Sequence record: MZ501109
Source of the DNA: Escherichia phage TrudiRoth
Reading direction: 5' to 3' (one strand)
DNA length: 64,000 bases
The notes under the pieces were generated by a model. It did no database searches. It was not told the origin of the DNA and was given only the letters and a program-made list of their open reading frames with translations. The position numbers and the translations under genes are program-made. Shown here one piece after another: positions 1,553 through 61,758 of the stretch; within the stretch, counting starts at the first letter, position 1, and the number at the start of each line of letters is the position of its first letter.

Positions 1553-4112
1553 CTAAAATCCTTTTCACATTATCCAGATCTTTACATACAGCAATAAACT
1601 TATCATCCTTGTACTTGCTGTGGTCTGGATGCTCTTTATCCATTGCAGCTAACTTCTTATACTCGAAATCTGCATCGAGTAATACACCCTTAACATAACG
1701 AGTATACTCATCATCATCAATACAAGCGATTGATGGGTGCTGTTTCTTCATCTTACCACAAGAGTAGTCACGAGAACCACCTTTCTCGGAATCAGAATCA
1801 ATACCGATTGGGCAGCCAGGGATACTAATACCACGATCCTTCTGGATGCTACGAATCAGAATCTCGTTATACTGATCGATCAGATCTTCACGTACAATGG
1901 CAACCACGGAGTCGTGAACCAACATGACGATCTTCATCTCTTTTCCTAGACCCAGTGACAGGATTTCTTCATCAGCATCAATAGCACCTAACAACAGGCT
2001 ATCAGAAGATGCAGACTGAATGATTGCGTTAAATCCAGAACGGATTTCTTCACCCTGAACACCACGATCTTCGGAATGGATGTTGTGCAGACGACGCTTA
2101 CGACCAAAGTGACTATAGATGAATCCAAAGTTCTTGATCTGATCGTGGCACTTATCAATCCAACGCTTAAGCTGAGGGAACTGACCGAAGTAAGTTTCGA
2201 TATAGTCCTTAGCATCTGCAACGGTACATTCAACAAACGGTTCGCCTGTCTTAGCAGCCTGTTCCAGAAGAGCTTCGTTAACAGAATGAGCTACTTTCGC
2301 TGGGCCAGAACCATACAGAATACCGAAGGTAATTGCCTTAGCAGCTTGACGCAGAGCTGGGAACAATTTCTTAACATCACGCGGTTCACAGGTCAGTTTA
2401 AATACCATGTGTGCGATGTTAGAGTGGAAGTCAGGGTATTTATCCGGCTCATTCTTCATGTTGATAAATACTTGTTGCATGTTTCTGTCACCAGACAGTA
2501 CAGCAGCGTAATAAACTTCCGCAGTTGTTAAGTCCCATGCGATTACACGGTATCCCGGAGGAGCTACTACACAACCCTTGATAATAGATTCATCACGTGG
2601 TAACTGTTGCAGGTTCAGCTTACCAGAAGAACTCAGACGACCAGAAGTAGTCATATGTTCATGGAAACCAGTACGAATGCAACCATCTGCATCGATGCTC
2701 AGAAGAATCTTCTCAACATAAGTAGAGATCAGCTTAGTCAGCTTACGAATCTCTAGCAGAGTTTTCGCAATCGGGTGCTGAGTAGCCAATTCATTCAGAG
2801 CTTCTGCGTTTGTAGAATCTGCACCTGTATCCGTCAATTTACCCGTTGGAGTCAAACCAACATAATCAAACAGAAGAACACGGAGTTGCTTAACAGAGTT
2901 CGGGTTAAACGCTTCGTTCTGATTCTTCTCCAGCTGAACGACTTCTGGATAAGTATACAGCTTCTCACGAGCCATATTTAATCGATGTGTCAACTGATAC
3001 TGAGCTTCTTTCAAGCGATCAACGGAAATCGGTACACCACGATCTTCAACACGTTGCAGGAATACACAACCAGGCATCAGAACTTCGTAGTATAGACTGC
3101 AAAGCTTTTCGTTCTTCTCAATTTTTGGTAAGAAGAAGTTATGCAGACGCAGAGTAGCATCGGTATCTTTTGCAGCATATGGCCACATAATATCAAAAGG
3201 AATCAGATCATAGCTGAAATCCTCTTTTTTGATCTTATGTGCCTTGCAATAATCATCCTTGAACTTATCCAGTTCAAAGTCATAGTCACCCATGTCAGTG
3301 TACTTCATAGCCAGAGATTTCAAGCCGTGAGTACCACGACGTTCATCGAGAACATAGTGTTGTAACATGGTATCGTGAAGTCTACGCTCTTTATGTGCTT
3401 TCTCGAAGGAAAGTCCTAGATGATAGGAGTAAAAGTGCATATCGAACTTCAAGTTATGAAAAACGATCTGATGATTCTTGCTATCCAGAATTTTCTGGAG
3501 ATAATGTACAGCTACTTCGGTGATGCTGTCAGAGTCAATATAGACACCCTGATACTCTTGGTGAGACATAGAAACACCAAGAAGATAACCATCACGAGCA
3601 TACAGAGCTGAGGTTTCGGAGTCGAATGCGATAGGTCCGATAACCATATTATACACCATCTTGATGTATTCTTCAGCTTCATCTGGATCAGTAATAGGAC
3701 GATAATCACCAGCTTTTGCAATCTTCTCACGACCATTAATAATGTCATGAATACTTTCAACAGTAGCATCGAAAACTGGTTTCATTTCAGGTTTAAAGTG
3801 TAGCTGAGCTGGACTAATACTTGCAATCCAGTTGGCATAGCCACCATGCTCTACACGTTTACCAGTATAATCACCTATACCTTTCTTACCTGCGAAATAC
3901 AGGAAAGGTTCAGCACCGACTAGCACAACAAAATCGTAATCGTTCGGATCGAACGGGTTATCTGGAGTTCCGATTGTAATATGCTTTTTCAGCAAACGAC
4001 CAGATAACTTCTCGTTACACATATGGAATACATCAACTTCCTCACCATAAAGCTGGAAGTGTTTATCATAACGAGTGTTATTTAGAGCTTTATCAACTAC
4101 TGCAATTTTCAA
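1545..4112 (-). CDS. DNA polymerase, family A (855 aa), with N-terminal 3'-5' exonuclease region
   Basis: Pol A motif B RQAAKAITFGILYG and motif C MLVHDS; 855 aa matches the size I recall for T5 DNA polymerase. Confidence 0.85.
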   Translation of the reverse strand: MKIAVVDKALNNTRYDKHFQLYGEEVDVFHMCNEKLSGRLLKKHITIGTPDNPFDPNDYDFVVLVGAEPFLYFAGKKGIGDYTGKRVEHGGYANWIASISPAQLHFKPEMKPVFDATVESIHDIINGREKIAKAGDYRPITDPDEAEEYIKMVYNMVIGPIAFDSETSALYARDGYLLGVSMSHQEYQGVYIDSDSITEVAVHYLQKILDSKNHQIVFHNLKFDMHFYSYHLGLSFEKAHKERRLHDTMLQHYVLDERRGTHGLKSLAMKYTDMGDYDFELDKFKDDYCKAHKIKKEDFSYDLIPFDIMWPYAAKDTDATLRLHNFFLPKIEKNEKLCSLYYEVLMPGCVFLQRVEDRGVPISVDRLKEAQYQLTHRLNMAREKLYTYPEVVQLEKNQNEAFNPNSVKQLRVLLFDYVGLTPTGKLTDTGADSTNAEALNELATQHPIAKTLLEIRKLTKLISTYVEKILLSIDADGCIRTGFHEHMTTSGRLSSSGKLNLQQLPRDESIIKGCVVAPPGYRVIAWDLTTAEVYYAAVLSGDRNMQQVFINMKNEPDKYPDFHSNIAHMVFKLTCEPRDVKKLFPALRQAAKAITFGILYGSGPAKVAHSVNEALLEQAAKTGEPFVECTVADAKDYIETYFGQFPQLKRWIDKCHDQIKNFGFIYSHFGRKRRLHNIHSEDRGVQGEEIRSGFNAIIQSASSDSLLLGAIDADEEILSLGLGKEMKIVMLVHDSVVAIVREDLIDQYNEILIRSIQKDRGISIPGCPIGIDSDSEKGGSRDYSCGKMKKQHPSIACIDDDEYTRYVKGVLLDADFEYKKLAAMDKEHPDHSKYKDDKFIAVCKDLDNVKRILGA

Positions 4113-9486: not shown

Positions 9487-9682
9487 CGTCTGTGATTTCC
9501 ATTTTGAGTTCTTTATTATACTGAGCAGCCATACCAGCCATACCAGCTAAATCAGCAGCTTCTTTCAACCACGCATCTTTGCACGCTTTCTGGTTTGGAA
9601 TGCCGATACTATCCTGATAGTTGATTCTTGCTATGGAGGGCAAATTAAATTTTGCTTGAATCTTTGGAAGTGTTATTGCCAT
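9479..9682 (-). CDS. hypothetical protein (67 aa)
   Basis: ORF track, operon context. Confidence 0.45.
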   Translation of the reverse strand: MAITLPKIQAKFNLPSIARINYQDSIGIPNQKACKDAWLKEAADLAGMAGMAAQYNKELKMEITDDE

Positions 9683-15410: not shown

Positions 15411-15783
15411 ACCTCAGTGCTGCGCTCTCTTAACTCTTATCCAGATCAGAACCTAGGTCATTGGCCGCTAAGCCGATTCTGATTGCCCTCACTATCCTAT
15501 TGGTAGGTGGCTACTGGACGTGTCACCATTCGCTGCTCTTTTCGTTCGCACCCCCATATAAAGCTCTGCCTATATAACGAGCTAAATATGCACGGTTTGG
15601 ATTTACCTTTCCGAATTCAGGGTACGCAGATCACTTAATTGATAATTAACTAATGCAGTATAAACACTAGTAATAGTTAAAACAACCCTTAATGGGGCAG
15701 CCTAACTGTTCCGTATTGCGGATTGTAAACAAGAAAAATTAGCAAAATCAATTTTTACTAATGTCTCTCAATTCAATATAAAT

Positions 15784-37596: not shown

Positions 37597-37743
37597 CTGT
37601 ATTTAAGGCAAAAGAAAAGCCCATAAGTTATTCAACTAAGGTCTTTAGTATTTAATTCTTTAGAATCATATACTATTATTTCAGCAACAACGTGCTGCCC
37701 TTAAGTGCCCTGCGATTTTCCTCTAAAAAGTTAAAAAATTCGA

Positions 37744-59302: not shown

Positions 59303-59683
59303 TTGAATTACGCATATCTTATAATACATAACAACGTGGTCTGTGGTACTCGTGCTGTAGAAATGGGAATCACAGAAGAAAAATATAAGTCACTACCTGA
59401 AAAAGAGCAAGAATATTACGTTGAGCAAGCTGCTTGGGAATATGCTGAAGTTTATCCCGAAGAACGTGAAGGTCGTGTTACTATTGTTGTTGCTCTGGGG
59501 CTGGTGGGCTGTGATACCGAAGTTGATACAGATCTAGAAACACTTGAAGAATGGGAAGAGCTGGATATTGCAGAGCAAAATGCTATTATCCGTGAATCTT
59601 TCTGGGAAGCAGTAGACTGTCACGTTGTCTTTGAGCCAAACGATACAGAAGCTGAAAAACATACTAATTGGATGACTCGATAA
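59303..59683 (+). CDS. hypothetical acidic protein (126 aa, TTG start)
   Basis: ORF track; RBS gagaggag 8 nt upstream. Confidence 0.5.
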   Translation: MNYAYLIIHNNVVCGTRAVEMGITEEKYKSLPEKEQEYYVEQAAWEYAEVYPEEREGRVTIVVALGLVGCDTEVDTDLETLEEWEELDIAEQNAIIRESFWEAVDCHVVFEPNDTEAEKHTNWMTR

Positions 59684-60546
59684 TGAAAAAAGAATTTAAC
59701 CTGCATGAAATGTTAGTAGTACCAGACGATGTTAACCTGTTCTTCGTAGGAGATATTCACGGCTGTAATGATATGCTGGAAGATGCTCTTAAACTAGCAG
59801 GATATAAAGAAAAGCGTGACTATGTTGTCTGTGTTGGCGACTTAATTGACCGTGGCCCGCAGAACTTACAGGTTCTAGCCAAATTCTTATATAACCCACG
59901 TTTCCGTAGCGTTCGTGGCAACCATGATCAGTTTATGATTGCCGGGGATTATGCCAACTGGATGTATAATGGTGGAATGTGGGCAATGAATGATCTGGAT
60001 ACCGATACAATTAAAGGTATCGCAGAAGATATGGCAGTTAAAATGCCAGTATTCATGACTGTACTCCATCGTGGCAAGAAATACGGTATTGTTCATGGTG
60101 GAATACCATTCCAGTATAAAGATGCGGGATTCGATGTACATACACCTAATTGGGACGATATTATTGATCATATCGCTGCAAGTGAAAATGATCCTAATGA
60201 TCATCCTAGTTATTACATTGAGCCATATCTATGGGATCGTGATGTAATTCAGGAAATTGGGTTCATCCTAGCACGTGGAGGAGCTACTCATGAGTACTTC
60301 AATCGTTATGCTAGCTTTAAGAATCAGTTAGTAGTTGAAGTACCTCCAGTTAAAGGTGTGGACTATGTATTCCATGGGCACACAGGTGTACCATACCCAA
60401 TCCTGTACCAGAACCGCGTATACCTAGATACTGGCGGTGTGTTCAACGGGAAGTTGACGGTTGCGCAAGTTAATGATGAAGCCGGTAAGATTATGACATT
60501 TACCACAGATAAAAATGATAGCTGTGGTGTACAGAGGATTCTGTAA
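59683..60546 (+). CDS. Ser/Thr protein phosphatase (calcineurin-like)
   Basis: GDIHGCNDML, GDLIDRGPQN, GNHD, and a His-rich C-terminal region; start could be 59668. Confidence 0.8.
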   Translation: MKKEFNLHEMLVVPDDVNLFFVGDIHGCNDMLEDALKLAGYKEKRDYVVCVGDLIDRGPQNLQVLAKFLYNPRFRSVRGNHDQFMIAGDYANWMYNGGMWAMNDLDTDTIKGIAEDMAVKMPVFMTVLHRGKKYGIVHGGIPFQYKDAGFDVHTPNWDDIIDHIAASENDPNDHPSYYIEPYLWDRDVIQEIGFILARGGATHEYFNRYASFKNQLVVEVPPVKGVDYVFHGHTGVPYPILYQNRVYLDTGGVFNGKLTVAQVNDEAGKIMTFTTDKNDSCGVQRIL

Positions 60547-61058
60547 TGGCCGGTATTTCTCAGGAATACCTGAAGAGTAGACTAACCTATAATCCTGAAA
60601 CATGGGAGTTTCGGTGGAAGCCTAACCCAAATGCTAGTAAAACATGGAATACTAGGTTTGCTGGTAAAGAAGCAGGTACTCTAAATAAAACTACCGGATA
60701 TATCAATTTAACAATTGATGGGGTTAAGCATGGTGCACATAGAATGGCTTTCTTATACATGGAGGGCTATTTACCTACTAAAGTGGATCACAAAGATACA
60801 ATAAGAACAAATAATGCTTGGAGTAACCTTAGGGCTGCTGATAATGCTCAGAATACTTGGAATGCTGGTATGAAAAGCTCCAATACTTCAGGATTTAAAG
60901 GTGTTTACTTAGATAAGCGTATAAATAAATATGTAGGTAGAGTTCGCTTTAGAGACAAAAGGTTCTCTACTAAATATTATGAAAATGCTGAGGATGCAGC
61001 TAAAGAGTTGGAAATCCTTAGAGAACAGTTACATAAAGAATTTGCGAGGAATGAATAA
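60546..61058 (+). CDS. HNH-AP2 homing endonuclease (paralog)
   Basis: HRMAFLYMEGYLPTKVDHKDTIRTNNAWSNLRAADNAQN and AP2-like SGFKGVYLDKRINKYVGRVRF. Confidence 0.75.
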   Translation: MAGISQEYLKSRLTYNPETWEFRWKPNPNASKTWNTRFAGKEAGTLNKTTGYINLTIDGVKHGAHRMAFLYMEGYLPTKVDHKDTIRTNNAWSNLRAADNAQNTWNAGMKSSNTSGFKGVYLDKRINKYVGRVRFRDKRFSTKYYENAEDAAKELEILREQLHKEFARNE

Positions 61059-61656
61059 TGCGTGTTAAATTCTGGTCGGATTTGCACTTAGACCACCCTG
61101 GAACTCTTCGCTTCCGTCCGTGGTTTAAGAATATGAAAGAACATGATGAATATATCCTAGATACTTTGTCCAAGCACATTGGCAAGCGTACTAAGCTCGT
61201 CTTGCTAGGGGATATTGCCGTGGGGCGTGAAGGGTTGGCTAAATTAAAGTCGGTTATCCACAATGTGCCTAACCAGTTAATCATGGGCAACCACGATGCT
61301 GAACGTCAGGGTCTGCATATTAAAGATCTTGTAGACGTTTATGATGATATTCAGGCTCTAGGTAAGCAAACAGGTGGTGGCAAGAAGTTTTGGCTGTCAC
61401 ACTGTCACACTGTCCATTGCACGAAGCAGAACTTCGTGGTAAGCTAAACATTCACGGACATGTGCACACCAATTCTGTGCGCGACCCACGTTATATCAAC
61501 ATCTCTTTTGAGATGAGTAAGACTCCTATTCCTCTAGAAGATATTGTATCTGGCAAGTTCACAAGCTATGATAGAGTAGTTAACTGCACTACTGGTGAAG
61601 TACTCCAAATCGATGAAGATGTGGCAGCAGTATTGAGGGGAGATATCAATGTTTGA
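61058..61656 (+). pseudogene. metallophosphoesterase gene split into two ORFs by a -1 frameshift at an 8-bp tandem duplication
   Basis: ORF1 has DLHLD and GDIAVG, GNHD; ORF2 (TTG-initiated in track) has HGHVH; tandem ctgtcaca-ctgtcaca at 61394-61409; removing one unit gives continuous ...FWLSHCPLHEAELRGKLNIHGHVH... Confidence 0.55.
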
Positions 61657-61758
61657 TTTTGATGGTATGGCTCGTGAGATATTTATAGCAATAGGGGTAG
61701 TAGTTCTTATCTCTTTCTTTACGGGCCTAGGCTTAGGCCTTTTATTTTAAAACTTCAT

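What the first reader, a model, noticed from the sequence alone, without database searches (positions are those of the whole stretch)
61058..61656. Metallophosphoesterase gene broken by an 8-bp tandem duplication
Two overlapping ORFs carry complementary halves of a calcineurin-like phosphoesterase (DLHLD, GDIAVG, GNHD, then HGHVH). The junction contains ctgtcaca-ctgtcaca-ctgtcca; deleting one 8-bp unit restores one frame (...FWLSHCPLHEAELRGKLNIHGHVH...), and the downstream ORF has no ATG. This looks like a recent slippage pseudogene, a sequencing error, or possibly a phase-variable or recoded gene.
Basis: seen in the sequence. Interest (0 to 1): 0.55.

Follow-up and report, generated by a model that had tools for sequence, protein, structure and literature searches.

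The report
Phage phosphoesterase gene broken by duplication
A conserved phosphoesterase gene of a T5-like phage (apparently the lab phage TrudiRoth/Bas30) is cut in two by an 8-base tandem duplication seen in no relative; this is an ordinary recent frameshift pseudogene, not a recoded or switchable gene.

Summary
CTGTCACA occurs twice in tandem at 61394-61409 and is followed by CTGTCCA. Removing one unit fuses ORFs 61058-61447 and 61390-61656 into a 196-aa calcineurin-like metallophosphoesterase (PHROG 547, E 5e-55).

The extra 8 bases were not found elsewhere. Every listed row among 269 phage records is 8 bases shorter at this site. None of 19 relatives read at this site has it. Exact searches of IMG/VR, JGI metagenomes and GTDB genomes found nothing.

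Orthologues are intact and under strong purifying selection (median dN/dS 0.03). Of 138 long ORFs in the close relative oselot, this is the only one split into two frames in the window, so the assembly is not generally error-prone.

The exact 129-aa truncated product is GenBank QXV85376.1 of Escherichia phage TrudiRoth (Bas30). That phage was sequenced on Illumina at 50-100x and plaques normally.

The ancestral sequence CTGTC-ACA-CTGTC has the microhomology needed for replication slippage. There is no slippery heptamer, no usable start for the downstream ORF and no conserved split, so recoding and phase variation are unsupported. Only reads or resequencing can exclude an assembly artefact. Interest is low.

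The parts
61058..61447 (+). 5' fragment of the phosphoesterase gene. It encodes 129 aa: 116 native residues (motifs I-IV: D8/H10, G51-D52, G77-N78-H79-D80, H115) plus 13 out-of-frame residues (HTVHCTKQNFVVS), ending at stop TAA 61445-61447.
   Evidence: The exact product is QXV85376.1 of phage TrudiRoth.
61394..61409 (+). The lesion: two perfect tandem copies of CTGTCACA (61394-61401 and 61402-61409). Relatives have one copy.
61410..61416 (+). CTGTCCA. Its first five bases (CTGTC) are the second arm of the ancestral 5-bp direct repeat CTGTC-ACA-CTGTC that could template slippage.
   Evidence: S126 and vB_EcoS-26175I read GGCTGTCACACTGTCCATTG
61402..61656 (+). 3' fragment of the gene in the -1 frame. 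It covers native residues 113-196, including motif V (G131-H132-V133-H134), with stop TGA at 61654-61656. The mechanical ORF begins at TTG 61390 and has no convincing ribosome-binding site.
   Evidence: tblastn 113-196 at 61402-61653, 100%

Best explanation
This is a genuine, recent 8-bp tandem duplication that turned a conserved early gene of an Epseptimavirus (T5-like phage) into a frameshift pseudogene. The ancestral allele read GG-CTGTC-ACA-CTGTC-CA. During replication the nascent strand, having copied the second CTGTC, slipped back onto the first CTGTC and recopied ACACTGTC, adding 8 bases (inferred mechanism). Translation now leaves the native frame after Cys116, reads 13 foreign residues and stops at 61447. 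The 129-aa product lacks the last 80 residues, including the GHVH motif that supplies two of the metal and catalytic histidines of calcineurin-like phosphoesterases. It is therefore expected to be inactive (inferred from family knowledge). The 3' fragment has no usable start and is probably not translated. The phage remains viable, so the gene is dispensable for plaque formation on E. coli K-12.
For: Shown:
- The extra 8 bases sit exactly at the frame break, and removing them restores 196 aa.
- The repaired protein matches PHROG 547 phosphoesterase over residues 1-189 (E 5e-55). It also matches Pfam Metallophos at 22.0 bits against a cut-off of 21.5 and PDB 1xm7, including the LSHxP and IHGHVH segments.
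- S126, 26175I, EH1, SH9 and A148 all have a single unit.
- The best of 269 phage records reaches 92.8% identity, which is the 8-base gap, and every listed row spans 103 rather than 111 bases.
- Exact searches found 0 matches in IMG/VR, JGI metagenomes and GTDB genomes.
- 14 of the 16 T5-like loci fetched by then have an intact ORF of 194-207 aa, with median dN/dS 0.033 and maximum 0.11 over 101 pairs.
- 58 of 60 evenly sampled tblastn hits among 605 records are a single piece.
- Of 138 oselot ORFs of at least 90 aa, only this one is split in the window.
- The record is TrudiRoth/Bas30, sequenced on Illumina NextSeq at 50-100x, and the phage is used in plaque assays.
- The two 8-mers are identical and the repaired frame has no other lesion, which indicates a recent event.
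Against: No reads were available, so an assembly or consensus artefact cannot be excluded. The slippage mechanism is inferred from the microhomology and was not observed. Loss of activity is inferred from motif loss and was not measured. The biochemical function of the intact protein is unknown. Only 64 kb of the roughly 114-kb genome was visible, so a second copy elsewhere in the genome was not excluded; none exists in the window.
Confidence: 0.85

Rival explanations
1. The duplication is a sequencing, assembly or consensus-editing artefact. The real phage has one CTGTCACA unit and an intact gene.
For: The allele is known from a single record and was seen on one contig only. It was not found in any other collection. 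The look-up of encoding contigs found no independent assembly carrying it.
Against: Illumina data at 50-100x with a Geneious assembly rarely create 8-bp tandem insertions. No other ORF of at least 90 aa is split across the region homologous to oselot. Sister BASEL phages from the same pipeline (GreteKellenberger, SuperGirl, TrudiGerster) have intact copies. The flanking microhomology fits a biological slippage event.
Confidence: 0.09
2. The gene is recoded: a programmed -1 (or +2) ribosomal frameshift in the 58-nt overlap produces a full-length enzyme with about 3 extra residues in motif IV.
For: The two ORFs overlap (61390-61447), and the downstream frame is -1 relative to the upstream one.
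Against: There is no X XXY YYZ heptamer in the 0 frame. The only homopolymer is TTTT at 61388-61391, positioned so that it could only favour a +1 slip into the wrong frame. No relative examined shares the arrangement. Any fused product would carry an insertion such as SHC inside a catalytic motif.
Confidence: 0.015
3. The site is a phase-variable contingency locus whose 8-bp repeat number switches the gene on and off.
For: Short tandem duplications can revert by the same slippage that made them.
Against: The window has only two copies, and every relative examined has exactly one. No copy-number polymorphism was seen in any collection. Many relatives read CACATTGTCC here, which shortens the direct repeat from 5 to 4 bases, so the site is not kept as a repeat.
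Confidence: 0.02
4. The two fragments are both made and reassemble as a split enzyme.
For: SH9 is annotated with two 'phosphoesterase' CDSs.
Against: The split points differ: codon 57 in SH9 and EH1 against codon 117 here. The downstream ORF starts at TTG, with only a weak GGTGG about 9 nt upstream, and has no ATG before motif V. The fragment on its own matches no Pfam family.
Confidence: 0.01

Closest known systems
Phosphoesterase of Epseptimavirus phages (PHROG 547), e.g. Salmonella phage S126 orf125 (AXC41443.1) and Escherichia phage vB_EcoS-26175I QDJ99978.1
   Same: It sits in the same genomic position, downstream of the NinI-like Ser/Thr phosphatase. Nucleotide identity over the gene is 97.9% once one 8-mer is removed, and the same five metallophosphoesterase motifs are present.
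   Different: Those genes are single 196-aa ORFs. The window's copy has 8 extra bases and is split into fragments of 129 aa and 88 aa.
Aquifex aeolicus aq_1665 (PDB 1xm7), a small stand-alone calcineurin-like metallophosphoesterase of unknown function
   Same: It is the only solved structure found by sequence (E 0.002). The alignment covers the N-terminal motifs, LSHxP and IHGHVH.
   Different: The relationship is distant, and no fold comparison could be run here. Its substrate is also unknown.
Frameshifted alleles of the same gene in Salmonella phages SH9, EH1 and EH7 (+1 G in a G-run) and in the UNVERIFIED record A148 (+1 T)
   Same: The same gene is broken by a small insertion in otherwise viable or deposited phages.
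   Different: The sites and the type of lesion differ: these are single-base homopolymer changes, which are typical of sequencing error or simple slippage. They are independent of the window's allele.

Membership tests
Calcineurin-like metallophosphoesterase (Pfam PF00149 / PF12850) | Motifs I-III (D-x-H, G-D, G-N-H-[DE]) in one polypeptide | tested here: met
   D8-L-H10, G51-D52 and G77-N78-H79-D80 lie in ORF 61058-61447
Calcineurin-like metallophosphoesterase (Pfam PF00149 / PF12850) | Motif IV His and motif V G-H-x-H in the same polypeptide as motifs I-III | tested here: not met
   H115 is retained, but G131-H132-V133-H134 lies in the other frame, beyond the stop at 61447. The feature is met only after one 8-mer is removed in silico.
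Calcineurin-like metallophosphoesterase (Pfam PF00149 / PF12850) | Score above Pfam's gathering cut-off | tested here: inconclusive
   The repaired protein scores 22.0 bits against a cut-off of 21.5 for PF00149. The 129-aa fragment scores 19.5, below the cut-off, and the 88-aa fragment has no hit. PHROG 547 is matched clearly at E 5e-55.
Frameshift pseudogene made by slippage duplication | Intact orthologues under purifying selection, with the lesion absent from them | tested here: met
   14 of the 16 T5-like loci fetched by then are intact, and median dN/dS is 0.033. The duplication is absent from all 19 relatives read at the site and from all collections searched.
Frameshift pseudogene made by slippage duplication | A perfect tandem copy flanked by pre-existing microhomology, whose removal restores the conserved protein | tested here: met
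   The closest relatives read CTGTC-ACA-CTGTC. The repaired translation matches the orthologues through ...FWLSHCPLHEAELRGKLNIHGHVH....
Frameshift pseudogene made by slippage duplication | The lesion is present in the DNA molecules themselves (reads or resequencing) | not testable with these tools
   No read data were available. The only indirect evidence is the Illumina 50-100x sequencing and the absence of other split ORFs.
Programmed -1 ribosomal frameshift | A slippery heptamer X XXY YYZ in the overlap | tested here: not met
   None was found in 61298-61447
Programmed -1 ribosomal frameshift | A two-frame arrangement conserved among relatives | tested here: not met
   Relatives have a single ORF. 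The few split ones are split elsewhere.
Phase-variable simple-sequence contingency locus | Repeat copy number varies among strains or relatives | tested here: not met
   Every relative examined has one unit and only this window has two. Exact-pattern scans elsewhere found nothing.

The most novel reading that the evidence does not exclude
Loss of this phosphoesterase may be selected rather than neutral. Independent frameshifts at three different sites break a gene that is otherwise under very strong purifying selection: the 8-bp duplication here, +G in SH9/EH1/EH7 and +T in A148. That pattern is what escape from a host defence triggered by the protein would look like, or a cost of the gene during laboratory propagation. 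If so, TrudiRoth/Bas30 would be a ready-made natural knock-out for finding the enzyme's role.
Probability: 0.06. Interest if true: 0.45.

Novelty: new member of a known kind. Interest (0 to 1): 0.15.

Why it matters
The practical value is modest.
- The GenBank protein QXV85376.1, annotated as a 129-aa 'serine/threonine phosphatase', is a truncated product and should be flagged as a pseudogene or disrupted gene.
- TrudiRoth (Bas30), a phage distributed through DSMZ, is a natural knock-out of a phosphoesterase that is conserved across T5-like phages and has no known function. The gene is therefore dispensable for plaque formation on E. coli K-12. Comparing Bas30 with a revertant could reveal what the enzyme does.
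- Nothing here changes how recoding or phase variation is understood.

Tried and rejected
- **Recoding.** I scanned for -1 slippery heptamers and homopolymers in the overlap and found none usable.
- **Independent translation of the 3' ORF.** The candidate starts TTG 61390, TTG 61417, GTG 61462, GTG 61477 and ATG 61513 have no good Shine-Dalgarno sequence, and the later ones lie inside or beyond motif V.
- **Other carriers of the duplication.** I searched INPHARED phages, IMG/VR, JGI metagenomes, GTDB genomes and exact-protein contig look-up, all with no result.
- **Link to the neighbouring homing endonuclease.** Two HNH-bearing phages (AKM_ECS, RN29) have intact phosphoesterase genes. The EH1-like tract ends near 61060, about 330 bp upstream of the duplication. 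No link is supported.
- **Poor assembly quality.** The megablast indel list against oselot was dominated by compensating alignment gaps. The protein-level test was cleaner and showed a single split ORF.
- **Literature.** Searches found no study of this gene's function.

Full report
**Observation.** The window reads ...AAGAAGTTTTGG CTGTCACA CTGTCACA CTGTCCA TTGCACGAAGCA... The two perfect 8-mers lie at 61394-61401 and 61402-61409.
- ORF 61058-61447 (129 aa) carries DLHLDH, GDIAVG, GNHD and LSHC. It then reads 13 unrelated residues and stops.
- ORF 61390-61656 (88 aa, TTG start, -1 frame) carries LSHCPLHE...IHGHVH.
- Deleting one 8-mer gives an open 591-nt frame of 196 aa.
- tblastn of that protein against the window places residues 1-116 at 61058-61405 and residues 113-196 at 61402-61653. 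Both are 100% identical, in two frames, so LSHC is encoded twice.

A perfect 8-bp tandem repeat is not statistically unusual on its own. The window has three, against 0.87 expected in shuffles. The other two show no gap against the relative oselot. The case therefore rests on comparison with relatives.

**What the gene is.** The repaired protein matches PHROG 547 'phosphoesterase' over residues 1-189 (E 5e-55). It also matches:
- Pfam Metallophos, just above its cut-off at 22.0 against 21.5 bits;
- NCBIfam PdeM, only weakly;
- PDB 1xm7, Aquifex aq_1665, a small metallophosphoesterase of unknown function, with the LSHxP and IHGHVH segments aligned.

The five canonical motifs are D8/H10, G51-D52, G77-N78-H79-D80, H115 and G131-H132-V133-H134. 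The break falls just after motif IV, so the 129-aa product lacks motif V and the last 80 residues. From what is known of the calcineurin-like family, whose motif V histidines bind metal and take part in catalysis, it should be inactive. This is inferred, not measured.

**Context.** The window is an Epseptimavirus (a T5-like phage, Demerecviridae). Its last 14 kb are 96-97% identical to Salmonella phages oselot, beppo, SH9 and others. The exact 129-aa product is QXV85376.1 of Escherichia phage TrudiRoth (Bas30), seen on one contig of 114,488 bp. That record appears to be absent from the phage collection searched, since no hit was near-identical. According to PMC8594841, BASEL phages were sequenced on Illumina NextSeq 550 at about 50-100x and assembled in Geneious, with ambiguities resolved by PCR and Sanger sequencing. 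TrudiRoth is used routinely in plaque assays, so the phage is viable with the gene broken.

**Comparison with relatives.**
- Alignment with S126, vB_EcoS-26175I, EH1, SH9 and A148 shows one CTGTCACA unit in each and an 8-column gap against the window.
- In a search with 111 bases around the site, 269 records matched. The best reached 92.8% identity, which is exactly the 8-base gap, and every listed row spanned 103 bases.
- Exact-pattern scans of IMG/VR, JGI metagenomes and GTDB genomes found nothing.
- Of the 16 T5-like loci fetched by then, 14 have an intact ORF of 194-207 aa.
- Protein identity stays near 90% even where synonymous sites are saturated. Median dN/dS is 0.033 and the maximum is 0.11 over 101 pairs.
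- In an even sample of 60 out of 605 tblastn-positive records, 58 are a single piece.

The gene is therefore functional and constrained in the family, and the window's allele is a singleton.

**Artefact or real.**
- I translated all 138 stop-to-stop ORFs of at least 90 aa from the homologous roughly 70 kb of oselot and searched them against the window. Only the phosphoesterase is split between frames.
- Sister BASEL phages from the same pipeline carry intact copies.
- An 8-bp tandem insertion is not a characteristic Illumina error.
- The closest alleles (S126, 26175I) read CTGTC-ACA-CTGTC. This 5-bp direct repeat at 8-bp spacing is the substrate for slipped-strand duplication.
- The two copies are identical and the repaired frame has no other lesion, so the event is recent.

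I put a real mutation at about 0.85 and an artefact at about 0.09. Only reads or resequencing can settle it.

**Rivals.**
- *Programmed -1 frameshifting.* This needs a slippery site in 61390-61447, and there is none. The only homopolymer, TTTT at 61388-61391, is phased for a +1 slip into the wrong frame. Any fusion product would add about 3 residues inside motif IV.
- *Phase variation.* This needs copy-number polymorphism, and every relative examined has one unit.
- *A split enzyme.* The downstream ORF has no credible start, and the few other split alleles are broken elsewhere.
- *A link to the adjacent HNH homing endonuclease.* I found no support for it. HNH-bearing AKM_ECS and RN29 have intact genes. 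The EH1-like mosaic tract ends about 330 bp upstream of the duplication.

**Other broken alleles.** SH9, EH1 and EH7 carry +1 G in a G-run at codon 57. The UNVERIFIED record A148 carries +1 T three bases after the window's site. These are single-base homopolymer changes that may be errors, and they are independent of the window's lesion. They leave open a small chance that loss of this gene is sometimes favoured.

**Verdict.** This is an ordinary, recent frameshift pseudogene, made by an 8-bp slippage duplication in a conserved but dispensable phage phosphoesterase. It is a new instance of a well-known kind of lesion. Its practical value is limited to correcting the annotation and to its use as a natural knock-out.

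Noticed in passing
window 60546-61058 (+), with flanks 59600-61070: An HNH_3 + AP2-domain homing endonuclease gene sits here (Pfam; PHROG 99). It occurs in only 6 of 50,697 phage records and is 99.8% identical to the copies in EH1 and EH7. The window is at least 99% identical to EH1 across most of ~59600 to ~61050 (one 100-nt bin at 93%) and then switches to an S126-like sequence. Relatives without the endonuclease drop to 71-81% identity at 60200-60400, the 3' end of the Ser/Thr phosphatase gene. This looks like a recent homing event with a co-conversion tract.
   Followed up: partly
L003 about 3218-3230 (EH1); L015 and L022 (SH9): The same phosphoesterase gene is frameshifted by +1 G in a G-run (GTGGGGCG becomes GTGGGGGCG), which truncates it at 71 aa. 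SH9 is annotated with two 'phosphoesterase' CDSs. SH9 differs from an intact LVR16A-like allele by almost nothing else. A +1 slip on GGGGG would restore the frame. Whether this is an error, a mutation or slippage was not resolved.
   Followed up: partly
L021 (MG065642.1, 'Campylobacter phage A148', UNVERIFIED): This is an Epseptimavirus genome labelled as a Campylobacter phage. It has +1 T (CCATTG becomes CCATTTG) immediately after the SHCP codons, giving a 125-aa truncated product. It is probably a low-quality record.
   Followed up: partly
window 61649-61750 (+): A 33-aa hydrophobic ORF (PHROG 18933, E 7e-24) that RefSeq calls 'Rz-like spanin' in relatives. It starts 8 nt before the phosphoesterase stop codon. 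The premature stop at 61447 would abolish any translational coupling, although the ORF has its own GAGGGGAG upstream.
   Followed up: no
window 9526-9543; also 37651 and 15735: Other tandem-repeat copy-number differences exist relative to oselot. The window has a 9-bp in-frame duplication, CAGCCATAC x2. It has one unit fewer of the 8-bp TTTAATTC repeat at 37651 and one 18-bp block (two AAAATTAGC units) fewer at 15735. Slippage polymorphisms are therefore common in this lineage.
   Followed up: no
GenBank QXV85376.1 (window 61058-61447) and ACB97478.1 (phage EPS7): There are annotation issues. The truncated 129-aa product is deposited as 'serine/threonine phosphatase'. The EPS7 orthologue is annotated from an internal Met (171 aa, starting at MKEHDEY) and so lacks motif I. 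The cause in EPS7 was not examined.
   Followed up: no
window 59668-60546 (+): A second, unrelated metallophosphatase lies two genes upstream. It is a NinI/lambda-PP-like Ser/Thr phosphatase (Pfam Metallophos, 65 bits) and is intact. It does not substitute for the broken gene by homology, since there is no tblastn similarity.
   Followed up: partly
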